The translations under genes were made by a program, and so were the position numbers. A stretch of 64,000 nucleotides of DNA from a virus. The notes beneath the pieces were generated by a model. It ran no database searches. It saw nothing but the letters and a program-made list of their open reading frames with translations, and was not told the DNA's origin. The stretch covers positions 1 to 64,000 of the IMG/VR virus record IMGVR_UViG_3300009157_000016; one strand, written 5' to 3'. Of the stretch, positions 9,480-61,285 are shown one piece after another. Position 1 is the stretch's first letter, and every line of letters starts with the position of its first letter.

Positions 9480-9595
9480 AGAAGCACCCCTGCGATGATT
9501 GTTACGAACCCGGTGAGGACGGAACCAATGACTACGCCAAGCACGAAGTAGAACTTGGCGACTTCTATGTCCGTCCCCGTGACTAGCAGTTTCAT
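9476..9595 (-). CDS. small membrane peptide (39 aa)
   Basis: MKLLVTGTDIEVAKFYFVLGVVIGSVLTGFVTIIAGVLL; coupled at both ends. Confidence 0.55.
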   Translation of the reverse strand: MKLLVTGTDIEVAKFYFVLGVVIGSVLTGFVTIIAGVLL

Positions 9596-9930
9596 TATCT
9601 GTCCTCCAATCTCACGCGCACCTTGTCAGACGAAGCTTCCAGCCGCAGCTCGTCCAGCGCTGCTTGCAGCGTCTCATGGCGGGCGACGAAGTTGTCCACG
9701 GCTGCCTGCTCTGCCTTCGCCTTCTCATGGCTGATCATCACGGCTCGAACTTCCTCCAGCGCGCCCCGCGCAGTCGTGCGCCGGCCCTGATTGTCCACGT
9801 AGCGCGGCAAGGATAGGCTCTCAGGCAGGCGCGCGAACAGAGGCTCGAACAGACCGTTGATGTCTTGCTGGAGCTTCGCGAACGCCTTCCGGCGGATGAT
9901 CCCGTCTACTGTCTCTGTCTCAGTGGTCAC
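9595..9930 (-). CDS. hypothetical protein with C-terminal RVRLE tag
   Basis: 111 aa; ends KVRVRLEDR. Confidence 0.7.
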   Translation of the reverse strand: MTTETETVDGIIRRKAFAKLQQDINGLFEPLFARLPESLSLPRYVDNQGRRTTARGALEEVRAVMISHEKAKAEQAAVDNFVARHETLQAALDELRLEASSDKVRVRLEDR

Positions 9931-16592: not shown

Positions 16593-16677
16593 GGATAAAT
16601 CCTCCGGTTGACTTTTGACGAAATCGGGGCTTTTGTCCACGGTTATACCTTTCCCACGCAAGCAGGGTGTAATCCCG

Positions 16678-18531
16678 ATGAGCAAAAAGACGCTACAGCG
16701 CGAAGCGCCAGTTAAGGGGGAGCCGGAGCGCAAGTCGTATCCAAGCGTCATCAAATCAATCGACCAAGCGACACGGAGGATTGACTTCATCATTTCGACG
16801 GAGTCAGTTGACCGCTACGGCGATGTCATTCGTGTCAAGGGGTGGAGCCTCAAACCCTACAAGGCGAACCCGGTTGTCCTCTTCGGTCACCAGAACCGCG
16901 AACCGCCTGTCGCGCAGGCCGTGCGCGTGTGGAAGGAAGATGGAGCGCTGCGGGCAACCGCTCAGTTCATGTCTGAGGATCTGAGCCCGTTCGCGCACAG
17001 CATTTTCCGCATGTACGAGGAGCGCTTCCTGCGCGCCACGTCCGTCGGCTTCATGCCCCGCGAATGGGACTTCATTCAGGACGCGGACGGGAACATCACC
17101 GGCTACGACTTCGTGAAGTCGGAGCTTCTGGAATTCAGCGCCGTGCCTGTGCCGGCCAACCCGGAGGCCCTTGTCAACGCACGGGCGAAGGGGATCAACA
17201 CCGCTCCGTTCAAGAAGTGGGCGGAGCACATGCTCGACGAGTGGCCCGAGCGTGAGTCGCAACTTCGTGGCCTCTACGGCATTGACCGGAAGGGGCTCGA
17301 GTCTATCCGCCGTAAGGCGGCAGGAACCGGCGCAGTGTACCGCTTGTCCGCCGAGGAGACGGAAGAACTCCGTCGCCGGAACTTCGGGGACATCATCATC
17401 AACATTGGTGGGGCCGACGCCGTTGAGAAGGACGCGCAGCGCTCCTTCGCCAACTCCGGAATGAGCGAGGACCAGGATCACAAGGAGAGCACGATGAAAG
17501 TGAAGCAGGGAATCTTCGGCGTTTCGGCCGCAGAGGTCGAAGAGTTGAAGGAGGCTTGCAAAGAAGCGGAGCTGTACGCAATCCCGCTGCCCGACAAGGA
17601 CGGCAAGAAGCAGTTCCTGCTTGTCCCGGAGATCGACTCGGGGATGATGGAAGGCACGAAGGGCATCCAGATGTCCGTCGAGGAGCACAACGGCAAGCGG
17701 TCATTCGTGATCGACAAGGCCCCGAAGCTCGCCGTCATCGCCCCCGAGGTCCTCGGCAAGGACGCCAACCTGTTCGAGTTCAAGATGGACGACAAGGCGT
17801 CGCACGTCTTGCTCACCATCAAGGGAGCGAACTTCGCCGCCACCTACAAGCTTCACGGCATGGTGGACGCGGACGCCGAACTCATGGCCGAGCTGGTCGG
17901 AACCAAGGACCAGAAGCAGCCCAACGAGAAGGGCGACGACGCCGACAAGGGCACCAAGAAGCCCGACACCAAGGACACCAAGAAGGAGTCCAAGGACGGT
18001 GAGGAGTCCAAGGACGAGTCGAAGGACGAGTCCAAGGGTGGCGACGACGCCGAGGGCGAGAAGAAGGCCACGAAGGACGGCGACGACGAGCCGCTGGAAA
18101 TCGGCGGCAAGAAGATCCCGGCCGAGGCCGCCAAGGAAATCCGTCGGCTCATTGCAGCCGCCGTGAAGAAGGAGGAAGACGAGGCCGCGAAGGGTCCCAT
18201 CGACCTCATGAAGGAAATCGAGAAGGCCGAGGCGCTGATGTCCTCCCTCGAGGAGGCTCTTGCCAAGGCGAAGAAATCCGGGCAGTTTGTCTCCAAGCTT
18301 GCTGGGCGGAAGCTCAAGACGCTTGGGGCCTACCTGCGCGAGCTGGCCGACGACCTCGACCCGGAGGGGAAGGTCAAGGTCAATACCAACGGGCACGATG
18401 AGTCCAAGTCCGACGACAAGGACGAAATCGACCTGAAAGATCTCGGTTCGTTCTTGGCCAAGGAGGTTCAGCCCCAACTTGCCGCCCTGATCGCGACCGA
18501 AGTGAAGAAGGCACGGGGGGCGCTCGACTAG
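16678..18531 (+). CDS. HK97-type prohead protease with long C-terminal scaffold-like extension
   Basis: STESVDRYGD, NPVVLFGH, ATSVGF, LLEFSAVPVPANPEAL motifs; charged C-terminal half. Confidence 0.9.
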   Translation: MSKKTLQREAPVKGEPERKSYPSVIKSIDQATRRIDFIISTESVDRYGDVIRVKGWSLKPYKANPVVLFGHQNREPPVAQAVRVWKEDGALRATAQFMSEDLSPFAHSIFRMYEERFLRATSVGFMPREWDFIQDADGNITGYDFVKSELLEFSAVPVPANPEALVNARAKGINTAPFKKWAEHMLDEWPERESQLRGLYGIDRKGLESIRRKAAGTGAVYRLSAEETEELRRRNFGDIIINIGGADAVEKDAQRSFANSGMSEDQDHKESTMKVKQGIFGVSAAEVEELKEACKEAELYAIPLPDKDGKKQFLLVPEIDSGMMEGTKGIQMSVEEHNGKRSFVIDKAPKLAVIAPEVLGKDANLFEFKMDDKASHVLLTIKGANFAATYKLHGMVDADAELMAELVGTKDQKQPNEKGDDADKGTKKPDTKDTKKESKDGEESKDESKDESKGGDDAEGEKKATKDGDDEPLEIGGKKIPAEAAKEIRRLIAAAVKKEEDEAAKGPIDLMKEIEKAEALMSSLEEALAKAKKSGQFVSKLAGRKLKTLGAYLRELADDLDPEGKVKVNTNGHDESKSDDKDEIDLKDLGSFLAKEVQPQLAALIATEVKKARGALD

Positions 18532-21495: not shown

Positions 21496-22278
21496 ATGCC
21501 CAGCGAGAGAGTCAATATCACTTTCACGGGTTCGGCGAGCCCGTACACGTCCGGTGACAAGGCCAGCTTCCCGATGGCCAAGGCCAAGGCGTTCATCCGA
21601 CGCGGCGTTGCTCATTTCACGAACCCCGACCTTCGTGACAATGAGAAGGCTATCCGCCGCGTTCGCCTTGGCGACGTTCAGGACCGTATGCACAGCGTCC
21701 ACGGCAACGTCACGTCCGGCAAAGACTTCCAATCGCCGCCCGACGAGTTCGACCGTGCCATGCGCGGCGGTGCCGTTGACGTGGACGAACGCGGTGAGCC
21801 GCTTCTGGACAAGGACGGCATTCCGCTCGACGAGACGGGTGAGCGGAGCAAGCCTATCGATCCGCGCCTGCGTCCGGGCGGCACGGGCACGGGGGCGGGA
21901 CGACTTGGCACGCAGGACTCGGCCGGTCACTCGATGAACGTGGGCGAGCACGGCGGCGATCCTTCCTTGACGAAGGAGACGGGCGTGAAAACGGCTGCGG
22001 AAGCCGAAGCCCGCCGTACCGGTACCGACCCGGTGGAAGCCGGCGCGACGGCCGAGCGCGAGAAGCAGGCGGCTGAGGGTGACGCCATCAAGGAGGCGAA
22101 TCGTGACGCCGCCGCCGAGGCCAAGGGACCCGACGCCGTTGCCAAGCGCGAGGAGCAGAAGGCCGAGACGGTGAAGAAGGAGATCGCCGAGCAGGCTGAG
22201 GCCGACAAGGCGGCTGCTGACGCGGCGGCTGAGGCAGAGGCGGCCAAAGCCAAGAGCAAGACCCGGACCCGCCTGTAG
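21496..22278 (+). CDS. hypothetical head-region protein with Ala/Glu/Lys-rich tail
   Basis: 260 aa; AGGAG RBS; contains RRVRL, ends KTRTRL. Confidence 0.75.
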   Translation: MPSERVNITFTGSASPYTSGDKASFPMAKAKAFIRRGVAHFTNPDLRDNEKAIRRVRLGDVQDRMHSVHGNVTSGKDFQSPPDEFDRAMRGGAVDVDERGEPLLDKDGIPLDETGERSKPIDPRLRPGGTGTGAGRLGTQDSAGHSMNVGEHGGDPSLTKETGVKTAAEAEARRTGTDPVEAGATAEREKQAAEGDAIKEANRDAAAEAKGPDAVAKREEQKAETVKKEIAEQAEADKAAADAAAEAEAAKAKSKTRTRL

Positions 22279-47610: not shown

Positions 47611-47830
47611 GACGCACCTTTCCACGTTCTTTTAGTTTCACTTTCCTTCCCAACGACCAGTAGACGACCAAGACCCTCTTCGATTGTCGCCACTTGACTA
47701 TGTGGCAGGGAGCGAGGACACGTCTCATCTGCCAGACTTGTTCGAGAAGCTCCTTCAACGTGCAGCCGGGCTCACGGCGGAACTTCCCTTTTATGGGAAT
47801 GCGGAAGAGGGTCGGGTCGTCATCCTTCAT
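47462..47830 (-). CDS. hypothetical protein
   Basis: ATGA-coupled to the resolvase; its 3' part overlaps DUF1643. Confidence 0.45.
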   Translation of the reverse strand: MKDDDPTLFRIPIKGKFRREPGCTLKELLEQVWQMRRVLAPCHIVKWRQSKRVLVVYWSLGRKVKLKERGKVRHDVLRSKARPRRKEAPKDAGRHGRRRLVRRPQSGIPTDTAPLVEQTKAV

Positions 47831-48345
47831 AGGCGCACGCGATCACGCAGCGGCCGGCACTTGAGAAAATCATCCCAAAAGATGACTTGCAGATTGAGTT
47901 GTGGGTAGATGGCTTCAATGCGGAAGATGCCCAGCAAATGGAAGCCCTTCTTGGTGCTGAGGACCAGTATGGGGAAATTGTTCTGGCGGGCAATGAGGAA
48001 CGGTATCTTGTCGAACTTCTCAGCATCCCGGCACAAGGCAAGCCAGAAGTTGACAAGGTTCCCCCTGCGCTTAATCAGCGCATCAATGTCCAAGTTCTTG
48101 AAATGCTTTGAGTCGACGAGGAAGTTGTCGACGAATTTCATGCCGGCTGGATCAATGGCGCTTATGTCACCGGCTTGCGCAGAGAGGATTGTGCCGGACT
48201 TGAAGGCAATGCTGGCCCGGCCTCCTGACATGGCGGTGCGCCAGAATATGTCCTCACGCTTGCCGCGCGTGACCCATTTGGATAGCTCACGGCAACAGTA
48301 GCGTTCGAACGTAGCGCCCTTTTTCTGACTACCGCCCTTCCTCAT
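47827..48345 (-). CDS. Holliday junction resolvase (PD-(D/E)xK)
   Basis: KKGATFER...WRTAMSGG...GDI...VDSKH; ends RDRVRL. Confidence 0.8.
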   Translation of the reverse strand: MRKGGSQKKGATFERYCCRELSKWVTRGKREDIFWRTAMSGGRASIAFKSGTILSAQAGDISAIDPAGMKFVDNFLVDSKHFKNLDIDALIKRRGNLVNFWLALCRDAEKFDKIPFLIARQNNFPILVLSTKKGFHLLGIFRIEAIYPQLNLQVIFWDDFLKCRPLRDRVRL

Positions 48346-48679
48346 CTACCCGCTCCCCTTTATCGTTGATAGGCCACTTCTCACCGCTGATAAGACGGAT
48401 AGTGACCATTTCCTGATGACGGTTCATCATGTCGACTTCGTATTCCGCCTTGCCGTTGGCGACCTCAATGGTGAACCGCATTCCCCTTAGCTTCTCGGGG
48501 TCGCTGATGTCCAAGCCGAACTCACGAAGCATTGCGAACGTCGTCGTGGTGGAGTGCATCCACGGAGTGTCTATTGTGGTGTAGCGCTGGCCGTAGATGG
48601 GCTCCACATCTTTGCCGAATGCGGTATCAGGAACCTCGCCGGTGTGCAGCGAGAATTGCATCCTGCGTAGCTCAACCAT
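48329..48679 (-). CDS. hypothetical protein
   Basis: MVELRRM start with GAGGAGG RBS. Confidence 0.6.
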   Translation of the reverse strand: MVELRRMQFSLHTGEVPDTAFGKDVEPIYGQRYTTIDTPWMHSTTTTFAMLREFGLDISDPEKLRGMRFTIEVANGKAEYEVDMMNRHQEMVTIRLISGEKWPINDKGERVDEEGR

Positions 48680-49724
48680 ACTTCCTCCTCTTGGGTATGA
48701 ACTCGTCCTCGATCTCATTCCAGAGACGACGGACGACCTTGTTGACGCGACGTGTCTCGCGGTCAAACTCCTTGTCGCTCATGTCGTTCAGCGCGTCGCG
48801 GTACTGAGTGAACTCCTTCTTCTCCGCCGGTATGTCAGCCGCCTTGAGACGCTTGATGGACTTGAGCCAGTCCAGCGAAGCCCCAAGGTCATCAATCCCG
48901 TAGCCAAAGATGAAGTCCATGTCGCACGACCTGAACGGGAAGCCGACCTTGTTCTTCTTGCATAGGGCTTTGATGCCGATCCCGTAGACGCGCTCAACGC
49001 CGCGAATGGTGCGCTTAAGCTGCTCCTTGTGGGACAGCCAGAGGATGTGCGTGGCGTAGAAGTCAAGCGCTTTGCCGCCAGCGCGGCGGTGCTTCTCCCC
49101 AAAGCTGACGTTGATGTTGTCCCGCACCTGTGAGACGATAACAAGGCAGACGCGGGCCTTGCCGATCTTCTTGGTCAGCTTGCGGAACAATTCAGACGCC
49201 ATCTTGGCCTTTGCCATGCCGTAGGTGGCGTCACCAATCTCACGCTCCAGTTCCTTCTCGTCGCTGAGGCCGTCATAGCTGTCCAGCACGTACATGCCGG
49301 GCACGTCGTCTTTGATGCAGTCGTCGCAGAAGCGTTCCAAGTCCCGTGCAAACGCTTCAATGGTGGTGATGGGGGCGTCCGGATCGCCGAAGTCTATGTC
49401 GTCAACCGGCGCGCCCATAGCCTGCGCATAGTCCATGTCGTAGGCTTCTTCTGTCTCCCGGTAGGCTGCCTTTCCCTTCGGGTAGTCCATGCAGAAGTTT
49501 GTCAGCCCCTCAGTGGCAAGCGCCGTCTTGGCCGTGCTCTTGTCGCCCACGATGTTGATCATACGTCCTAGGACGTAGCCGCCGCTGAGAACGTTATCAA
49601 GCAGCCCGCAGCCGCTTGACGTGAATTCCAGCTTCTCCTTTTCGGAGGTGAAATAGAGGTTGTCCTCTTTTCTCAGCTTGTCATAAGCCGTTTCATCCTC
49701 AAGCTTTACGCGCCGCTTTGCCAT
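48672..49724 (-). CDS. recA: RecA/UvsX-like recombinase
   Basis: SSGCGLLD..LSGG, GDKSTAKT (variant Walker A), VLDS, SQVRD, GGKALDFYA, KNKVG.PFR. Confidence 0.9.
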   Translation of the reverse strand: MAKRRVKLEDETAYDKLRKEDNLYFTSEKEKLEFTSSGCGLLDNVLSGGYVLGRMINIVGDKSTAKTALATEGLTNFCMDYPKGKAAYRETEEAYDMDYAQAMGAPVDDIDFGDPDAPITTIEAFARDLERFCDDCIKDDVPGMYVLDSYDGLSDEKELEREIGDATYGMAKAKMASELFRKLTKKIGKARVCLVIVSQVRDNINVSFGEKHRRAGGKALDFYATHILWLSHKEQLKRTIRGVERVYGIGIKALCKKNKVGFPFRSCDMDFIFGYGIDDLGASLDWLKSIKRLKAADIPAEKKEFTQYRDALNDMSDKEFDRETRRVNKVVRRLWNEIEDEFIPKRRKYG

Positions 49725-49931
49725 CTGGCCTCCAGTTGTAGACACGGCGCTGCTTGGGAAGGGGGTTGACCGCCAGATAATCCTGCCAGCCCTCGTATCC
49801 CATCGCCCGTATCTGACTTTGATCTCTGTCCAACCTTGCCCAAGGGATTTCGTCATCCATCTGCTCTGCAAGAGGGCGGTTATCTAGCTGGTGGGCGTAG
49901 ATGACGCCCTCTTGCAGGAGGTAGGCAGCCC

Positions 49932-51503
49932 TTAGTCCCGGTCGCGCCTCCGGCGGTCCCGGTCGTCGTCCGGGTCGTCATAGCGGGTGCGCTTCTTGTC
50001 ACCGCGATCGTCGTCACGGTCGCGCTTGCGGTCACGGTCGTCGTCATCATCCCGACCGCCGCGCTTCTCGCCGACGTCACGTTTGCGGTCGTCGTCCTTG
50101 TCCCGGTCCTTGCTGCGCTCACGCATCTCAGCAAGACGGTCCTTCACGTTGCGGCGCTCACCCTTGTCGTCGTCATCGCGCTTCCGGTCCCGGTCCCGGT
50201 CATCGTCATCACGGTCGCGACTGCGGCTGCCACGGTCAACGTCATCCCGGTCACGGCTGCGGCGGTCGTCCTTGTCGTCGTCACGGTCACGCCCGCGCCG
50301 GTCATCACGGTCGTCATCCCGGTCACGGCTGGCACGACGATCATCCCGGTCATCATCACGGTCACGCCGGCCACGACGATCGTCGTCGTCTTCGCTCCTC
50401 TTCCGTGACGACCCACGGTCATCATCACGATCGTCGTCCCGGCCACGGCCGCGCACCGAACCACGATCATCATCATCCCGGTCACGCCGGCCACGGCCTG
50501 AGCCGCGTTCGTCATCATCCCGGTCACGGCTGCGCCCGCCGCGCCGGTCGTCATCCCGGTCACGGTCACGGCTACGGCCACCACGACGATCGTCTTTGTC
50601 GTCGTCGTCCGTTTCAACGCGGACGTGGCCGCCGAAGGCCGCTTCAATGTGGTCGTAGTCGTGGTATTGCAGGACATCAGGGATGGGATTTTCCTTGATG
50701 TAGTCCAGCACGTCCTGCATGTCACGCTTGTTGTCCAAGATGGGACCGCTGGGGAGGATCTTCATCTTGGACGCCGGGTACTTGGTATTGCGGCCGGTGC
50801 CTTCACGGTAGAAGCGGATGTCGTTCCCGTCGTAAGGGTCATCAATGTAGATGAGCGCCTTGGTGTCCTCGTCAACCGTCAGGTTGGCGATGTCCTTGTC
50901 GAACGTCCACGCCATTGCCCAAAACTGAGCGCCTTCGTCAGGAGCGTTCTTGTCAAGGACCCACACGCCCTTCCGCTTCTTGGGCGTCAGGGCTTTGGCC
51001 AGCTTCTCGTCGCCGTCCTTTTCAGCATCACGGCGGGCCTCATCCAGCGGGTCCCTCTTGCCCAGCATCTTGCTGAGGCTGAGGTACGTCTGCGAGTCGA
51101 CGCCAATGCCGTAGTTGCAGTAGATGTCGTAGCAGTAGTACTTCGCATCGTCCCACGTGGGCGGCAGGATGCGGATCGTGTTCTTGCCTTCCTTTGGCTT
51201 GAACACCTTGATCCCATCCTTTACGATGGAGTCGAAGTTCCCTCCGCTTTGGTTGGCGGCTTCCCGCACGGCTTCACGCGACGTGCGCTTGTAGACAAAG
51301 CTACCACCACGACTGGAGCCGCGATCATCATCACGGTCACGATCACGCGAACGACCACGGTCACGATCCCGGTCATCGTCGTCCCTCCCACGGCTTGAGC
51401 GCCTGTCGTCATCATCCCGGCCACGGCGACGATCGTCGTCCCGGTCACGGTCGCGATCCCGGTCATCATCCCGGTCACGGCGTCTATCGTCATCACGTGC
51501 CAT
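49932..51503 (-). CDS. gp32-like single-stranded DNA-binding protein with Arg/Asp-rich N- and C-terminal tails
   Basis: Core FKPKEGKNTIRILPP...DDPYDGNDI...GTGRNTKY; RDRDDD repeats on both sides. Confidence 0.8.
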   Translation of the reverse strand: MARDDDRRRDRDDDRDRDRDRDDDRRRGRDDDDRRSSRGRDDDDRDRDRGRSRDRDRDDDRGSSRGGSFVYKRTSREAVREAANQSGGNFDSIVKDGIKVFKPKEGKNTIRILPPTWDDAKYYCYDIYCNYGIGVDSQTYLSLSKMLGKRDPLDEARRDAEKDGDEKLAKALTPKKRKGVWVLDKNAPDEGAQFWAMAWTFDKDIANLTVDEDTKALIYIDDPYDGNDIRFYREGTGRNTKYPASKMKILPSGPILDNKRDMQDVLDYIKENPIPDVLQYHDYDHIEAAFGGHVRVETDDDDKDDRRGGRSRDRDRDDDRRGGRSRDRDDDERGSGRGRRDRDDDDRGSVRGRGRDDDRDDDRGSSRKRSEDDDDRRGRRDRDDDRDDRRASRDRDDDRDDRRGRDRDDDKDDRRSRDRDDVDRGSRSRDRDDDDRDRDRKRDDDDKGERRNVKDRLAEMRERSKDRDKDDDRKRDVGEKRGGRDDDDDRDRKRDRDDDRGDKKRTRYDDPDDDRDRRRRDRD

Positions 51504-51518
51504 ACACTTCTCTCCTCG

Positions 51519-51689
51519 TCAGGCGCTCTCGGCGCGGGTTTCTTTCTGCCCATGCTGGATAAGGCTCAGGAGTCCCTGAACGTATGCCAGCTTGGCGCGG
51601 TAGTATGCGATGAACACGAAGTTCAAGAAGCAATACAGCAGCGCCAGAACAAGGATCAGGACTGCTACGCCCAGTACGTCCTCAGTCAT
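51519..51689 (-). CDS. small membrane protein (56 aa)
   Basis: MTEDVLGVAVLILVLALLYCFLNFVFIAYYRAK...; GGTGAGG RBS. Confidence 0.6.
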   Translation of the reverse strand: MTEDVLGVAVLILVLALLYCFLNFVFIAYYRAKLAYVQGLLSLIQHGQKETRAESA

Positions 51690-52182
51690 CGTACCTCACC
51701 CTTCGTTTGGAACGGCCTTCAATGATCCGCTCCATGTTGCGCTTGGAACGATACTCGTCAGCCCGGCCGCCTTTGGTGGCGTCCGTCTGATAGTAGTTCG
51801 CTACGTACAGCCCTGCCAGATCCTTGAGCATGTAGGACCGCATTGAGAAGGACTCCTTCAACGTCTGGCACCTGTCCGCCCATTCCTTGGCGTCAAGGTA
51901 GCTCTTGGTGGCCTCAATGTGGTCGTCATGTATCTCAATGGCGTTCTTGATAGCCGCCTCACTGGCCTTGCCGTCCGACCGTTCCAGTTCCCTCCTGCAC
52001 TCAAAGTATAGGCGCGCGTCGATTTGGGACAGTTCCTCTTTGGCTGTGTCCCGGTCAGCGTTTGCCGCTGCCAATAGATCGCCGGCTTCATAGAACAATT
52101 CTGGTTGCCTGACCAATTCCATGTCTAGGTCAAGGCGGTCAATTTGCAGCGCACGGCGCAGTTCGCTAGGTTTTGCGGGCAT
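51682..52182 (-). CDS. UvsY-like recombination mediator
   Basis: LQIDRLDLDMELVRQP, KASEAAIKN, helical; next to SSB and RecA. Confidence 0.65.
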   Translation of the reverse strand: MPAKPSELRRALQIDRLDLDMELVRQPELFYEAGDLLAAANADRDTAKEELSQIDARLYFECRRELERSDGKASEAAIKNAIEIHDDHIEATKSYLDAKEWADRCQTLKESFSMRSYMLKDLAGLYVANYYQTDATKGGRADEYRSKRNMERIIEGRSKRRVRYDD

Positions 52183-52214: not shown

Positions 52215-53192
52215 CTAGGCCCGGTGGAGTTCCAGAACCAAGCCAATGGAAACGTAGAGGGGAGCGTACTTGGCGGAATTGTCATAGGGCGTTGAGAAGC
52301 ATTCGATGATCCTCAGCAGGCTCGCAGCGCGGCGGTGATCAGTCGTCTTGGCCGCCACCTTCGCCATGTAGTGGCACGTAACGATGCGAATGCTTTCAGC
52401 GTCCTGATTGGCTTCCTCCATGTCCTTGCAGATGCGCATGGCGTCCTTCCATGTGCCCTTGGGCTTCATGAGGAACTGGCAGAAGTCATTGATTTCCTTC
52501 GTCTCACCGGCCAGCCTTAGCGCCTCACGCGCGTCGGTCACCGTTTCGCAGTACTCAACCTTCTCAAGGTAGGTCAAAGCCTGCCGTGGTGAGCCGCCGC
52601 TGTTCTCAGCAATCAGCTCTAGTATCTCATCCTCCACCTTGAGGTCCGCCTTGTCCATGACCTCGGCAAGGATGAGCAGAATTTCATCCTCACTGAGCGG
52701 CTTGAGATGGTAGTCAATGCACCGCGTCTTGATGGTGGCAGGAACCTTGCCGGGCAGCGTGGTGCAGAAGAACCAGTACACGTGCTTGGGCGGTTCCTCC
52801 GTGGCCTTGAGAATGCTGTCCCATGCGTTGCTGGACAGCTTGTGGCACTCATCCACGATGATTCCTTTGACCGGACTGTCGCCAATTGCCCGGTAGTTGG
52901 CCTTCTGGACAATGCTGCGCATGGCGTCCACACCGGTATGCGTGGCAGCGTCCACGTCGAGGATGTTCGCCAGCGTGATAGTGGCATCGTCGCTCTTGGC
53001 CCCAAGCAGGGCAAACTCGTTCGCCACAATGCGGGCAAGCGTCGTCTTGCCAAGGCCGGAGCCGCCCGTGAACAGGAAGGTGTGGGCACGCCCCTCCTTC
53101 ACGACCTTGCGCAAGGACTTCACGACGGCGTCGTGTCCAATGACGTCCTTGAATACGTTCGGCCGATAGGCGGTGTGTAGTGACGTGCTCAT
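52215..53192 (-). CDS. clamp loader, DnaX (gamma/tau)-like
   Basis: YRPNVFKDVIGH, GGSGLGKTT, DAATHTGVD, VDECHKL, LKATEEPP, TIKTRC. Confidence 0.92.
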   Translation of the reverse strand: MSTSLHTAYRPNVFKDVIGHDAVVKSLRKVVKEGRAHTFLFTGGSGLGKTTLARIVANEFALLGAKSDDATITLANILDVDAATHTGVDAMRSIVQKANYRAIGDSPVKGIIVDECHKLSSNAWDSILKATEEPPKHVYWFFCTTLPGKVPATIKTRCIDYHLKPLSEDEILLILAEVMDKADLKVEDEILELIAENSGGSPRQALTYLEKVEYCETVTDAREALRLAGETKEINDFCQFLMKPKGTWKDAMRICKDMEEANQDAESIRIVTCHYMAKVAAKTTDHRRAASLLRIIECFSTPYDNSAKYAPLYVSIGLVLELHRA

Positions 53193-56422: not shown

Positions 56423-57478
56423 TCAGTCTCCGAAGTTGGACAAGATTTGGAAGAGGTCCGCCCCCTTCCGGTAGACCGTGAAGCCTTCCAGCACGGCCAT
56501 CTCTGAGCATACGTCAATGCTGCGCGCCATCAAAGCCGCGTTGACCTTGATCTCGACGTCTGGATGATCCCCTTGAAGGTTGACCAGATCGCGCACCTCG
56601 CCCATGTCGGTGTTCGTGTATAGGCGCATCCGGCCTTCCTTGATGCTGATCTCAGTGGGCTGCGATTTGGGCTCAGCCACGACACGCGCCCGGCTCAGAG
56701 CGTGCTCAAGTCCTTTGGGGACCTTCATCCACGGGATCTCATCCCGCGTGGTCTTTTCGACCCACATGGCGTGGTCCACCGGGTCTTCTGGTTTGATGAC
56801 GCGGCCGTAGACCTTGTAGTCCTTCTCAAGCTCGGCCAACACCCATTCGTCAGAAGCGTGCAGCCGGCCGTTCATGGACTTGTCGCTCTTGCAAATGCGC
56901 AGGACCGACTCGCAGAAGGAGTTGGGCATGACGAAGCTGTGCGGGTCGTTGTAGTTGGCTCCGTCGATCAGGTAGTGCGTGAGGCTGTCTGAGTCGCAGG
57001 AGTAGAAGCTGATCCCGTCACCGGTATCCAACGTGATGCCCATGAGCGCCTGTTGGCTGCTGTCCTTGCTGGTCGTGGTGAGGCAAATTTCCATCGCCTC
57101 AATCAGGCTGTCATCCAGGTCCAGCACCACGTCCCACGACTCGTCAGACGGTTCTTTGAACAGGAACTCTGACTCTGGCAAGTAGGGCAGGCGCATCTTG
57201 GACCGGCCGGCAATGAACACGACTTCGTGTTGCTGGTCGTCGAACTCAATCTCCACTTCCTCGGTGCGGCAGTTGCGCAGCAAGCCGAGCATGGTGTCGC
57301 CGTGGCAGGCGAAGGGCGCTACGCCGGACGTGCATTTGGCCACGATGCCTAGGTGGTCGTCCGTCGCGTACAGGGTGTCCCCTGTGAACACGAAGTTCTG
57401 GTAGACGGGAACCAAGTCCTGATCGGCCAAGGCGGGCTTGATCAGTTCCAACATCGTGACCAGTGCTTTGCGTCTCAT
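56423..57478 (-). CDS. DNA sliding clamp (beta-clamp, DnaN-like)
   Basis: ~351 aa; LYATDDH, QALMGI, SCDSDSL repeats of the beta-clamp ATD motif; same module as DnaX. Confidence 0.8.
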   Translation of the reverse strand: MRRKALVTMLELIKPALADQDLVPVYQNFVFTGDTLYATDDHLGIVAKCTSGVAPFACHGDTMLGLLRNCRTEEVEIEFDDQQHEVVFIAGRSKMRLPYLPESEFLFKEPSDESWDVVLDLDDSLIEAMEICLTTTSKDSSQQALMGITLDTGDGISFYSCDSDSLTHYLIDGANYNDPHSFVMPNSFCESVLRICKSDKSMNGRLHASDEWVLAELEKDYKVYGRVIKPEDPVDHAMWVEKTTRDEIPWMKVPKGLEHALSRARVVAEPKSQPTEISIKEGRMRLYTNTDMGEVRDLVNLQGDHPDVEIKVNAALMARSIDVCSEMAVLEGFTVYRKGADLFQILSNFGD

Positions 57479-57918
57479 AGCCTCACCCTTCTTGCTAGTT
57501 TCCAACGGCGCTTGGCCGATTGCTGCATCTTTGCGATAGATTCGGATGTGTGCCGCGTACCATACCTTATGTGACCTATACCTTTCTGCGTGACGCCGGA
57601 GTGACCCTTCTGAGATTTATGTTTGGCGTGACAAGAAGGATAGAGTTGATTCTGACTGTTGGTTCCATCAAGTAAGTGCGCGGCGTTGCAGCACGGATGA
57701 AATTCGCAGTCATGGAGAACCATTCTTGGCCATGCTGGCACGTAACCGTTCTCTAAGAAGAACGCCACGCGATGGGCAGTGTACTGTATGCTGTGACGAA
57801 CTGAGAATACTCCATGCCCACTGGTTTGCGTTCCGCCTAACCAAGGCCAGCATTCGTCGGGGCCGCGTCGGTCAACTTTGGACCAGAAGCGCGCTATGTC
57901 TTTAGCGCTGAGGATCAT
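57475..57918 (-). CDS. HNH endonuclease
   Basis: RFWSKVD..GPDECWPWLG, AHRVAF, VLHDC..PCCNAAHL..GT..QN; ends RRVRL. Confidence 0.9.
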   Translation of the reverse strand: MILSAKDIARFWSKVDRRGPDECWPWLGGTQTSGHGVFSVRHSIQYTAHRVAFFLENGYVPAWPRMVLHDCEFHPCCNAAHLLDGTNSQNQLYPSCHAKHKSQKGHSGVTQKGIGHIRYGTRHTSESIAKMQQSAKRRWKLARRVRL

Positions 57919-60343: not shown

Positions 60344-61285
60344 TCAGTCGTCGCGGCGGCGGCGGCTGCCCTTCCGGTCGTCATCGTCATCCTTGCGGCT
60401 GGACCGCTTGGAGTCCTTGGCATCGTCGTCGTCACGGCTGCGGCGCTTGGACGAGGAAGCCTCCTTGTCGTCGTCGCGGCTGCGGCGCTTGCCCTTGTCG
60501 TCATCGTCGTCACGGGAGCGGCGCTTGCTGCTGCCCTTGTCGTCGTCATCACGGGACCGCTTCCGGTCGCCGTCGTCGGAGTCACGCTCCTTGTTCGAAG
60601 CGGTGGTCATTTTCCGCTTCTGCGCCGAGGACAGGTCATCCTTGTGCGTGACCTTGATCAGACCGTCGTAGCGCTCGACAAGGTGCCCATCCTTGGTCAG
60701 CTTCTTGAGCACGTTGTTCTGCGGGCCGCCGGTCTTGTCCTTGATGGTCTTCATGGACGCGCCGCCCTCGAAGAGCTTCACGGCGTCGGAGACCTTGGTG
60801 CCGACGACGAGCCCGTAGCGGTCGCGCTTCGCACCCTCGTAGTCACGGGGCGACTTCTTTTTGGAGCCCTTGTCGTCGTCCTTGTCACGGCCGCGGATGG
60901 ATTTGCGGTCGTCCTTGTCGTCGTCCTTGGAGGAACGACGGCCGCGCCGGTCATCCTTGTCCTCGTCCTTGTCCTTCGACTTGGCCGACTTGCGGTCATC
61001 GTCGTCGTCCTTGGACGAACGCTTGCCGCCCTTGCGGTCGTCGTCCTTGCCGCCCTTCTCCTCCTCGAAGTCCTCGATATCCTGGTCGGTCTTCAAGGCG
61101 TCCAGCGCGTTGTTCGCCCAGTCGGTCGCCGGGTCTGAGACCGCGTTGAACTCGTCGTCGGGAAGCTTGTTGACTTCCTTGGCGAGCGCGGCAAGGTAGT
61201 CCTGCCGGGTCTTGTAGTCGTCCTCGTCCTTCTTGAAGCCGGTCGCCTTGATCAGCTCCTTCTCGATTGCATGGAGTTTGGCCAT
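60344..61285 (-). CDS. winged-helix-like protein with long Lys/Arg/Asp mixed-charge tracts
   Basis: Core GTKVSDAVKLFEGGASMKTIKDKTGGPQNNVLKKLTKDGHLV flanked by KDDDR/RSRDDD repeats. Confidence 0.75.
   Translation of the reverse strand: MAKLHAIEKELIKATGFKKDEDDYKTRQDYLAALAKEVNKLPDDEFNAVSDPATDWANNALDALKTDQDIEDFEEEKGGKDDDRKGGKRSSKDDDDDRKSAKSKDKDEDKDDRRGRRSSKDDDKDDRKSIRGRDKDDDKGSKKKSPRDYEGAKRDRYGLVVGTKVSDAVKLFEGGASMKTIKDKTGGPQNNVLKKLTKDGHLVERYDGLIKVTHKDDLSSAQKRKMTTASNKERDSDDGDRKRSRDDDDKGSSKRRSRDDDDDKGKRRSRDDDKEASSSKRRSRDDDDAKDSKRSSRKDDDDDRKGSRRRRDD

What the first reader, a model, noticed from the sequence alone, without database searches (positions are those of the whole stretch)
49932..51503. 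gp32-like SSB flanked by about 290 residues of Arg/Asp mixed-charge repeats
Seen: the folded SSB core is bracketed by an ~65-aa N-terminal and ~225-aa C-terminal tract of RDRDDD/RGRDDD/RSRD repeats. Established: T4 gp32-type SSBs have a short acidic tail, and Arg-rich mixed-charge domains drive condensation of eukaryotic nuclear-speckle proteins. Inference: this SSB may scaffold a phase-separated phage replication compartment, with the RVRL-tagged proteins as clients.
Basis: partly seen in the sequence, partly recalled or inferred. Interest (0 to 1): 0.8.

Follow-up and report, generated by a model that had tools for sequence, protein, structure and literature searches.

The report
Phage SSB with giant Arg/Asp tails
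This is the single-stranded-DNA-binding protein of an uncultured 108-kb phage, a T4 gp32-type fold flanked by 292 floppy residues made almost only of arginine and aspartate; such mixed-charge tails are normal in its protein family, this one is the most extreme found, and whether it forms droplets is untested.

Summary
ORF 49932-51503 (-) encodes 523 aa: an N tract of 66 aa, a gp32-type core, and a C tract of 226 aa. Both tracts are 81-82% charged.

The core passes Pfam gp32. Its predicted fold matches RB69 and T4 gp32 (Z 14.6 and 14.4). The gene lies between a clamp loader and a RecA/UvsX gene, as in Mardecavirus Vibrio phages.

The tail is not unique. Every complete homologue examined has a mixed-charge C tail of 47-233 aa. 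In 93% of them it ends in a conserved basic helix followed by a short tip, acidic in most of those inspected.

This protein is the extreme case:
- It has the longest tails combined and the highest R+D content (0.71; family median 0.31).
- It has the finest charge mixing (kappa 0.09; median 0.37) and no proline.
- It has a rare long N tract and 53-58 extra residues after the helix.

The Arg and Asp preference far exceeds that of the phage's other proteins.

Published RD-repeat work makes condensation plausible, but it is untested. The idea that RVRL-tagged proteins are its clients is not supported.

This scan has noted similar SSB tails on other DNA (e1-372929, and Enc34-type SSBs). Verdict: a new variant of a known kind, of moderate interest.

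The parts
49932..51503 (-). SSB gene, 523 aa plus stop (P0001)
   Evidence: Pfam gp32 PF08804 scores 30.6 bits against a cutoff of 26.8. phrog_34306 E 1.7e-55 and phrog_1192 'single strand DNA binding protein'.
51510..51517 (-). Shine-Dalgarno GAGGAGAG, 6 nt upstream of the ATG
51306..51503 (-). N-terminal Arg/Asp tract, residues 1-66
   Evidence: 82% charged, no K or E, kappa 0.05. pLDDT about 45-52. A mixed-charge N tract of 30 aa or more is present in only about 14 of 155 family representatives.
51216..51305 (-). Conserved N-proximal basic motif, residues 67-96 (F-x-Y-K-R-T-S-R-E...). This is the position of the T4 gp32 N-terminal cooperativity domain.
   Evidence: F69, Y71, R74 and A83 are nearly invariant in A1. 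Predicted helix 76-82. The structural alignment starts at model residue 97 = gp32 residue 27.
50613..51215 (-). gp32-type OB-fold core, residues 97-297, without zinc ligands
   Evidence: pLDDT above 90. Foldseek's top six hits are all gp32 cores, prob 1.0. VIA Z 14.6 (2a1k_A) and 14.4 (1gpc), 193 residues aligned, rmsd 3.5-3.6; the next unrelated hit has Z 4.0. Loss of the Zn ligands.
50151..50612 (-). C-terminal Arg/Asp linker, residues 298-451
   Evidence: 80% charged, NCPR -0.06, kappa 0.086, the same as random mixing. pLDDT below 50.
50109..50150 (-). Family-conserved basic amphipathic helix (N-V-K-D-R-L-A-E-M-R-E-R), residues 452-465
   Evidence: Motif [ILVM][RK][DEAS][RKQ][LIM] found in 179 of 193 homologues, a median of 13 aa from the C end. 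Aligned in A1. Predicted helix 453-465.
49935..50108 (-). Region after the helix, residues 466-523. After a short acidic stretch it carries an Arg/Asp extension that other family members lack.
   Evidence: 66 residues follow the motif here, against 5-29 in all other homologues.
49971..49997 (-). Tag-like island K-K-R-T-R-Y-D-D-P, residues 503-511
   Evidence: One of only two non-low-complexity islands in the C tail. Resembles the C end K-R-R-V-R-Y-D-D of the ORF at 51682-52182. Not enriched family-wide.
48672..49724 (-). Neighbour: RecA/UvsX-like recombinase
   Evidence: Pfam RecA 1.7e-33; phrog_97 UvsX-like 4.8e-52.
51519..51689 (-). Neighbour: 56-aa hydrophobic ORF. An ORF of similar size lies at the same position in MAR10 and ZHS.
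   Evidence: No family hit.
51682..52182 (-). Neighbour: 166-aa protein of unknown function ending R-R-V-R-Y-D-D
   Evidence: phrog_1069 and phrog_2058, both of unknown function. An ORF lies at the same position in MAR10 and ZHS.
52215..53192 (-). Neighbour: clamp-loader ATPase
   Evidence: PF13177 7.5e-18; phrog_5846 2.5e-73.

Best explanation
This is the phage's gp32-type single-stranded-DNA-binding protein, encoded within its replication and recombination gene block. The folded OB core coats ssDNA. The conserved basic motif just before the core (F-x-Y-K-R-T-S) sits where the T4 gp32 cooperativity domain sits. The C tract is the family's universal disordered mixed-charge linker. It ties the core to a conserved basic amphipathic helix followed by a short acidic stretch. 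That helix is the likely docking or self-regulating element, in the way the bacterial SSB linker carries the C-terminal tip and the T4 gp32 acidic domain binds partners.

In this lineage the linker has been lengthened and purified to Arg and Asp. An RD tract has grown on the N end, and another after the helix. I read the tails as flexible polyampholyte tethers. Their many Arg-Asp and Arg-DNA contacts would tune how SSB molecules attract each other and their partners on ssDNA. Clustering at high concentration is a possible extension of this, not a demonstrated property.

Shown here: identity, fold, disorder, composition, and the family-wide pattern. Inferred: every functional role of the tails.
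For: Identity: Pfam gp32 above its cutoff. Fold Z 14.6 and 14.4 to RB69 and T4 gp32, with the next unrelated hit at Z 4.0. Gene order clamp loader - a 163-173-aa ORF - a 44-56-aa ORF - SSB, with RecA just downstream, as in Vibrio phage MAR10 (which has a thymidylate kinase gene between SSB and RecA) and Edwardsiella phage ZHS.

Disorder: pLDDT is below 50 over almost all of residues 1-67 and 298-523, apart from helix 453-465.

Family trait: all complete homologues have charged C tails. This covers 120 proteins with tails of 61-223 aa, 68 IMG/VR loci with 64-229 aa, and 151 representatives of 50%-identity clusters with a median of 123 aa, of which only one truncated fragment has less than 40 aa.

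Conserved end module: the helix motif is present in 179 of 193 homologues, a median of 13 aa from the C end.

Selection on composition: tails prefer Arg over Lys family-wide (median 0.69, against 0.44 in cores), independent of GC (rho -0.007 over 71 loci). Within this phage the tail composition differs from its other proteins at p 2e-12 and 1.5e-24.

Analogy: the E. coli SSB linker varies in length and composition but is always disordered, and it carries a conserved partner-binding tip (PMC7584906).
Against: No functional data exist for any member of this subfamily. The role of the conserved helix is inferred from conservation alone. A simple tether does not explain three things: why this lineage removed all proline, why it removed nearly all Glu and Lys, and why it added a tract beyond the helix. 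The N tract places 66 residues in front of a motif that lies within about 10 residues of the N terminus in most relatives. That could disturb rather than tune cooperativity.
Confidence: 0.55

Rival explanations
1. Condensate scaffold. The RD tails act as arginine-enriched mixed-charge domains that make the abundant SSB phase-separate, alone or with ssDNA or RNA. This would concentrate replication and recombination proteins in a phage factory.
For: Pure RD dipeptide repeats condense in a length-dependent way. From about 40 dipeptides they pellet in vitro at 5 uM without crowder, they form inclusion bodies in E. coli, and Arg-to-Lys substitution abolishes the effect (Greig et al., 10.1101/771592). 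The C tract here is 226 aa with 72% R+D and R/(R+K) 0.88. E. coli SSB condenses through its linker, and T4 gp32 forms droplets with PEG. A second protein of this phage, at 60344-61285, carries two similar tracts. RD-type tails and N tracts are scattered across the family tree, consistent with repeated gain.
Against: Untested for any phage SSB of this family. The tails are slightly net negative (NCPR -0.03 to -0.06). In Greig et al. NCPR 0 gave only modest condensation and -0.1 gave none. Charges are as finely mixed as random (kappa 0.05-0.09). Relatives mostly have blocky, proline-rich, more acidic tails, so the family-wide function cannot depend on RD chemistry.
Confidence: 0.3
2. Largely neutral low-complexity expansion. 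The linker only needs to be long, charged and disordered. Its exact length and R/D purity in this lineage would be drift through replication slippage and biased substitution.
For: Tail length varies widely, from about 47 to 233 aa, with no correlation to GC or phylogeny. Short seeds such as M-A-R-D-R-D-D-D exist at the N termini of relatives. Weak 36- and 39-nt periodicities occur in the DNA.
Against: The DNA is not a young repeat array: the longest exact repeat is 21 nt and codons are mixed. The Arg and Asp bias is far beyond that of the phage's own proteins and of the gene's core. The Arg preference is family-wide and independent of GC. Both of the last two points suggest selection on composition.
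Confidence: 0.12
3. The SSB tails or core are the docking site for the basic R-V-R-L terminal tags carried by about a dozen proteins of this phage. This would resemble the T4 gp32 acidic domain, which binds many replication and recombination proteins.
For: Five ORFs end exactly in R-V-R-L using different codons, and other ORFs carry variants of it near their C ends. The neighbouring recombinase, the 166-aa protein and a PDDEXK nuclease carry the tag or a close variant of it. The tags are basic and SSB tails in the family are net acidic.
Against: The SSB itself carries a tag-like K-K-R-T-R-Y-D-D, which fits a common third-party hub better. Tags occur in relatives whatever their tail flavour. 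Tag-like motifs are not enriched in SSB tails. Earlier notes of this scan, which I did not check, report the tag also on proteins they read as sigma-like, methyltransferase and small-terminase proteins; these are not obvious SSB partners.
Confidence: 0.1

Closest known systems
T4 and RB69 gp32 (Pfam PF08804; PDB 1gpc, 2a1k, 8gme)
   Same: Same OB-fold core (Z 14.4-14.6, 193 residues aligned). A basic motif precedes the core where the gp32 cooperativity domain lies. Disordered C-terminal region. The gene sits among replication and recombination genes.
   Different: Only 12-14% sequence identity, and no PDB match by sequence. All four zinc ligands are replaced. In place of a short purely acidic tail there is a 226-aa near-neutral R/D polyampholyte with an embedded basic helix, plus a 66-aa N tract.
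Orthologues in cultured phages: Vibrio phage MAR10 gp073 and its SSP002 counterpart (Mardecavirus), and Edwardsiella phage vB_EpM_ZHS gp54. Most are annotated as hypothetical.
   Same: 39-42% identical core. Closely similar gene neighbourhood. Mixed-charge C tails of about 150 aa. ZHS also has an 81-aa R/D/E N tract.
   Different: Their tails contain an acidic helical module, Glu, Pro and Ser. They are shorter and less pure. ZHS keeps an H-x11-C-x9-C-x2-C pattern at the position of the gp32 zinc site.
Bacterial SSB architecture: OB fold, intrinsically disordered linker and conserved C-terminal tip (E. coli SSB; Harami et al. 2020, PMC7584906)
   Same: The layout is the same: a folded core, a linker that varies in length and composition but is always disordered, and a conserved terminal motif. 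Several relatives even end in P-F plus acidic residues, like D-D-D-I-P-F. The E. coli linker drives condensation.
   Different: A different OB family and presumably a different oligomeric state. The linker chemistry differs, Gly/Gln/Pro-rich against R/D. The conserved element here is a basic helix, and in this protein it is not terminal.
Eukaryotic arginine-enriched mixed-charge domains and the fungal SPA-5 domain (Greig et al., bioRxiv 10.1101/771592)
   Same: R and D dominate. Charges are finely mixed. Arg is preferred over Lys. Length is above the published condensation threshold.
   Different: Natural speckle domains tend to be net positive, whereas these tails are slightly negative. The host is a bacterium and the partner is ssDNA. 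There is no experimental evidence. The resemblance is compositional, not homology.
Enc34 ORF6-type phage SSBs (PF10991) with alternating-charge tails, as noted earlier in this scan
   Same: A phage SSB carrying a disordered mixed-charge tail of variable length (scan notes e1-202712, e1-194054, e1-179030; not re-tested here).
   Different: An unrelated SSB fold family. Those tails are blocky tandem repeats ending in arginines.

Membership tests
gp32 family (Pfam PF08804) | Match to the family HMM above the curated cutoff | tested here: met
   30.6 bits against a cutoff of 26.8, residues 104-251. phrog_1192 'single strand DNA binding protein' 4.4e-08.
gp32 family (Pfam PF08804) | gp32-type OB-fold core | tested here: met
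   AF2 core pLDDT above 90. Foldseek prob 1.0 to 2a1k, 1gpc and 8gme. VIA Z 14.6 and 14.4, rmsd 3.5-3.6 over 193 residues, next unrelated hit Z 4.0.
gp32 family (T4 type) | Structural zinc site (His plus three Cys; the T4 residue numbers are from my own knowledge) | tested here: not met
   ZHS has an H-x11-C-x9-C-x2-C pattern at this position. In the query the His and the first Cys align to N130 and S142, and no Cys or His occupies the other two positions. N130 and S142 are invariant in alignment A1.
gp32 family (T4 type) | N-terminal basic cooperativity domain with a (K/R)(S/T) motif | tested here: inconclusive
   The conserved F-x-Y-K-R-T-S-R-E motif at residues 69-77 lies just before the structurally aligned core. 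This is resemblance only, and here it is preceded by 66 extra residues.
gp32 family (T4 type) | Short, purely acidic C-terminal domain | tested here: not met
   The C tail is 226 aa with 87 basic and 95 acidic residues, NCPR -0.035.
gp32 family | Cooperative ssDNA binding | not testable with these tools
   Needs purified protein.
Arginine-enriched mixed-charge domain (Greig et al.) | Disordered tract dominated by R and D/E, well mixed, with Arg rather than Lys | tested here: met
   Fraction charged 0.81-0.82, kappa 0.05-0.09, R/(R+K) 0.88, pLDDT below 50.
Arginine-enriched mixed-charge domain (Greig et al.) | Net charge neutral to positive, as needed for condensation | tested here: inconclusive
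   NCPR is -0.03 to -0.06. The paper reports modest condensation at 0 and none at -0.1.
Arginine-enriched mixed-charge domain (Greig et al.) | Condensation in vitro or in cells | not testable with these tools
   Needs an experiment.
Bacterial SSB-type layout (works-like comparison only) | Core, then a variable disordered linker, then a conserved terminal interaction motif | tested here: met
   Variable tails in all homologues. Conserved motif in 179 of 193, a median of 13 aa from the end. In the query 66 residues follow the motif.

The most novel reading that the evidence does not exclude
The Arg/Asp tails make this SSB a self-condensing scaffold. It would be a prokaryotic-virus counterpart of eukaryotic arginine-rich mixed-charge domains, gathering ssDNA and the phage's recombination and replication proteins into a membrane-less factory. 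The mixed-charge tails seen on several unrelated phage SSB families would then be a general device for this.
Probability: 0.25. Interest if true: 0.8.

Novelty: new variant of a known kind. Interest (0 to 1): 0.5.

Why it matters
SSB tails control how replication and recombination proteins are recruited. Bacterial SSB and T4 gp32 have recently been shown to form droplets in vitro. Here a large family of gp32-type SSBs from mostly uncultured phages (1,765 clusters at 50% identity) turns out to carry long mixed-charge tails with a conserved end helix. I found no paper describing this.

This member is close to a natural, near-pure RD polymer fused to both ends of an OB fold. That makes it a clean test object for two questions. 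Does Arg/Asp mixed-charge chemistry drive condensation in bacteria? What do SSB linkers do?

If the tails only serve as tethers, the finding is a well-characterised extreme of an ordinary theme.

Tried and rejected
- Sequence searches of the PDB with the core alone and with the family profile found nothing at E <= 1. The link to gp32 rests on Pfam and on fold.
- Megablast of 12 kb around the gene against cultured phages found no match. The exact protein is not in the 15-billion-protein collection, so no close relatives are available for dN/dS.
- The ESM Atlas search with the C tail gave no usable hits, as expected for a disordered tract.
- I tested whether the tag-like K-K-R-T-R-Y-D-D is a recurrent motif of SSB tails. 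It is not significant: 5 observed against 2.1 +/- 1.4 in shuffles, maximum 7.
- I tested whether the Arg preference follows GC content. It does not.
- I tested whether RD-type tails or N tracts form clades. They do not: the number of changes equals the number of carriers, as with shuffled labels. This used a FastTree tree only.
- ORFs on other frames and on the opposite strand across the RD-coding DNA are treated as by-products of the codon periodicity. None was studied further.
- A search for a DnaN-type clamp N domain in the genome was blank. Other clamp families were not searched.
- tblastn of the second mixed-charge protein, P0124, against cultured phages found no match.
Full report
**1. 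The observation**

The window is the first 64 kb of a 108,377-bp IMG/VR virus record that CheckV rates complete. ORF 49932-51503 on the minus strand is uninterrupted and encodes 523 aa.
- Residues 1-66 are 42% Asp and 39% Arg, with no Lys or Glu.
- Residues 298-523 are 39% Asp, 33% Arg and 6% Lys.
- Both tracts are 81-82% charged and nearly neutral (net -2 and -8). The core between them is 33% charged.

This is not genome bias.
- R/(R+K) is 0.88 in the tails, 0.36 in the same gene's core and 0.57 in the phage's long ORFs (p 2e-12).
- D/(D+E) is 0.95 against 0.53 (p 1.5e-24).

The reading frame is secure.
- GAGGAGAG lies 6 nt before the ATG.
- Residues 2-68 contain no Met, Val or Leu, so no alternative in-frame start precedes the conserved Phe69.
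- Homologues have like tails at protein level.

The DNA is not a simple repeat. Tandem Repeats Finder reports only weak arrays of period 6-39 nt. The longest exact repeat in the C-tail DNA is 21 nt. Arg uses CGT, CGC and CGG at 43, 27 and 25%, and Asp uses GAC and GAT at 67 and 33%. A slippage or assembly artefact is therefore unlikely.

**2. What it is**
- Sequence: the core passes Pfam gp32 (PF08804, 30.6 bits against a cutoff of 26.8). It also hits phrog_34306 (1.7e-55) and the SSB family phrog_1192.
- Structure: AlphaFold2, run on a 36-sequence alignment, gives pLDDT above 90 for residues 90-297. It gives below 50 for both tails, apart from helices at 76-82 and 453-465.
- Fold: Foldseek's six best PDB hits are all gp32 cores at probability 1.0. 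VIA-align gives Z 14.6 to RB69 gp32 and 14.4 to T4 gp32 (193 residues, rmsd 3.5-3.6, model 97-294 onto gp32 27-239). The next unrelated chain scores Z 4.0.
- Sequence searches of the PDB were blank.
- Gene order: clamp loader, a 166-aa protein, a 56-aa hydrophobic ORF, SSB, then a RecA/UvsX-like recombinase. Vibrio phage MAR10 and Edwardsiella phage ZHS have closely similar orders; MAR10 has an extra thymidylate kinase gene between SSB and RecA. The MAR10 core is 42% identical to this one and the ZHS core 39%.
- Zinc site: ZHS has an H-x11-C-x9-C-x2-C pattern where gp32 binds zinc. In the query the first two ligand positions are N130 and S142, both invariant in A1, and the other two carry no Cys or His. 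This is a zinc-less gp32-type SSB.

**3.

The family is large: 1,765 clusters at 50% identity with E <= 1e-3, and 601 with E <= 1e-30.

Every complete member examined has a charged C tail.
- 120 proteins: 61-223 aa.
- 68 complete IMG/VR loci: 64-229 aa, median 114.
- 151 representatives: median 123, maximum 233. Only one, a truncated fragment, has less than 40 aa.

The alignment shows a shared plan:
- a few residues, then a conserved F-x-Y-Q-x-R-S-x-E-D-V-K-E-R-A-N motif;
- the core;
- a variable linker built from acidic blocks and K-P-x-R-R blocks;
- a motif S-I-R-E-R-L-x-x-R-R;
- a short tip, acidic in most of those inspected.

That motif is found in 179 of 193 homologues, a median of 13 residues from the C end, with a range of 5-29 in all but the query. 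Some tips read P-P-F-D-E-D-E or D-E-D-A-P-F, which recalls the bacterial SSB tip.

**4. How this protein differs from its family**

Among 172 tails it ranks first for R+D content and first for fine charge mixing.

| Property of the C tail | This protein | Family |
|---|---|---|
| R+D fraction | 0.71 | median 0.31, 95th percentile 0.47 |
| kappa (charge mixing) | 0.09 | median 0.37, 5th percentile 0.23 |
| Proline | 0 | median 11% |

Its kappa is the same as that of its own shuffles (0.10 +/- 0.03). Its nearest relatives, at 60-65% core identity, have Lys-rich, blockier tails.
- The conserved helix (N-V-K-D-R-L-A-E-M-R-E-R, residues 452-463) is followed by 66 residues rather than about 13.
- Only 13 of the 226 tail residues are not R, D, K, E, G or S. 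They form two islands: the helix, and T-R-Y-D-D-P at 506-511.
- The 66-aa N tract is rare. Mixed-charge N tracts of 30 aa or more occur in about 14 of 155 representatives, among them ZHS with 81 aa. Short seeds such as M-A-R-D-R-D-D-D occur in a few others.
- On a FastTree tree of the cores, carriers of N tracts (14) and of RD-type C tails (11) need as many changes as there are carriers, the same as shuffled labels. These states are scattered, so they are probably gained repeatedly. Caveat: this is a quick tree of 50%-identity representatives, and counts of changes cannot separate gain from loss.
- Across 71 related loci the tails prefer Arg (median R/(R+K) 0.69, against 0.44 in cores). This preference does not follow GC (rho -0.007), which points to selection for Arg.

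**5. Mechanism**

Shown here: a gp32-type OB core; two disordered polyampholyte tracts; a conserved N-proximal basic motif at the position of the gp32 cooperativity domain; and a conserved basic helix near the C end.

Inferred: the C tract is a linker that presents the helix and tip to partners or to the protein's own DNA-binding cleft. This is how the bacterial SSB linker with its tip works (PMC7584906), and how the T4 gp32 acidic domain works (my own knowledge). The many Arg-Asp and Arg-DNA contacts would tune SSB-SSB attraction on ssDNA.

The condensate reading is physically reasonable.
- RD dipeptide repeats of about 40 units or more pellet at 5 uM without crowder.
- They form inclusion bodies in E. 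coli.
- The effect depends on Arg (Greig et al., 10.1101/771592).
- E. coli SSB and T4 gp32 form droplets in vitro.

Two points count against it.
- The same paper reports only modest condensation at zero net charge and none at -0.1 per residue. These tails sit at -0.03 to -0.06.
- Most of the family uses a different tail flavour.

I put the tether or regulator reading at about 0.55, a true scaffold role at 0.25-0.3, and neutral expansion at about 0.12.

**6. The RVRL clients**

Five ORFs of this genome end exactly in R-V-R-L using different codons, and other ORFs carry variants near their C ends. Some of these ends overlap the next gene's ribosome-binding site, but the codon variety argues for a peptide signal.

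Three results count against a specific link to the RD tails.
- The same tags occur next to SSB genes in relatives whose SSB tails are blocky; in L014, for example, the tail is strongly acidic.
- The SSB carries its own tag-like K-K-R-T-R-Y-D-D, close to the neighbour's terminal K-R-R-V-R-Y-D-D.
- Such motifs are not enriched in SSB tails.

The client idea is thus neither shown nor excluded. A common third-party reader fits at least as well.

**7. Novelty and earlier notes**

My literature searches found no description of these tails. The library is incomplete, so this is not proof of absence. In cultured phages the orthologues are mostly annotated as hypothetical.

This scan has noted the same kind of thing on other DNA:
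- a gp32-type SSB with R/D repeat tails and a basic end helix (e1-372929);
- Enc34-type SSBs with alternating-charge tails (e1-202712 and others);
- a chimallin with mixed-charge tails (e1-5282410).

I confirmed the gp32-family pattern myself and did not re-test the others. The verdict is a new variant of a known kind: ordinary in identity, extreme in its tails, with an attractive but untested hypothesis.

Noticed in passing
window 47827-48345, 57475-57918, 9595-9930, 21496-22278, 51682-52182; genome 69141-69467, 94086-94427, 98824-99228, 99537-99839: Five ORFs end exactly in R-V-R-L, using different codons. Others end in R-T-R-L, R-V-K-L or R-V-R-Y-D-D, and one has R-V-R-L three residues from its end. 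In some of them the coding DNA doubles as the next gene's Shine-Dalgarno sequence or as a hairpin. Similar tags occur in related phage loci L006, L009, L013, L014 and L083.
   Followed up: partly
window 60344-61285 (-): A 313-aa protein of unknown function (P0124) has two mixed-charge tracts, roughly residues 77-150 and 232-313, of K/R-D type such as K-R-R-S-R-D-D-D-D. No Pfam hit, only a weak phrog_38529 hit (1.8e-05), and no tblastn match in cultured phages. It is a second carrier of this chemistry in the same phage.
   Followed up: partly
window 50613-51215 (-), against L002:2752-4122: The zinc-ligand positions of gp32 carry no His or Cys here, and two of them (N130, S142) are invariant in the 36-sequence alignment. 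Edwardsiella phage ZHS has H-x11-C-x9-C-x2-C at those positions.
   Followed up: yes
homologues P0007, P0008, P0009, P0017, P0029, P0107 (C termini): Several family members end in P-P-F-D-E-D-E, V-P-F-D-E-D or D-E-D-A-P-F. This resembles the bacterial SSB tip D-D-D-I-P-F and may allow use of host SSB partners. The query lacks it.
   Followed up: no
window 48672-49724 (-), and L006, L015, L078, L083: The RecA/UvsX-like proteins of this lineage share a C-terminal F-x-P-[KR]-R-x-K-Y motif. Some, including this phage's, also begin with a basic R-V-K-L tag.
   Followed up: no
window 49932-51503 (-): The Arg codon CGT makes up 43% of Arg codons in the tails, against 18% in the phage's long ORFs. Third-position GC is 0.64 in the tails, 0.81 in the core and 0.73 in the long ORFs.
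   Followed up: no
window 49880-51562, other frames and + strand: Several long ORFs (51-257 aa, Ser/Arg-rich or Thr-rich) are open across the RD-coding DNA. I treat them as by-products of the codon periodicity, not as genes.
   Followed up: no
whole genome G000: No match to the DnaN beta-clamp N domain (PF00712), although a clamp-loader ATPase is encoded at 52215-53192. Other clamp families were not searched.
   Followed up: partly
window 16615-18531 (+): A 638-aa ORF has a K/E/S/D-rich charged stretch around residue 447. It was not examined.
   Followed up: no
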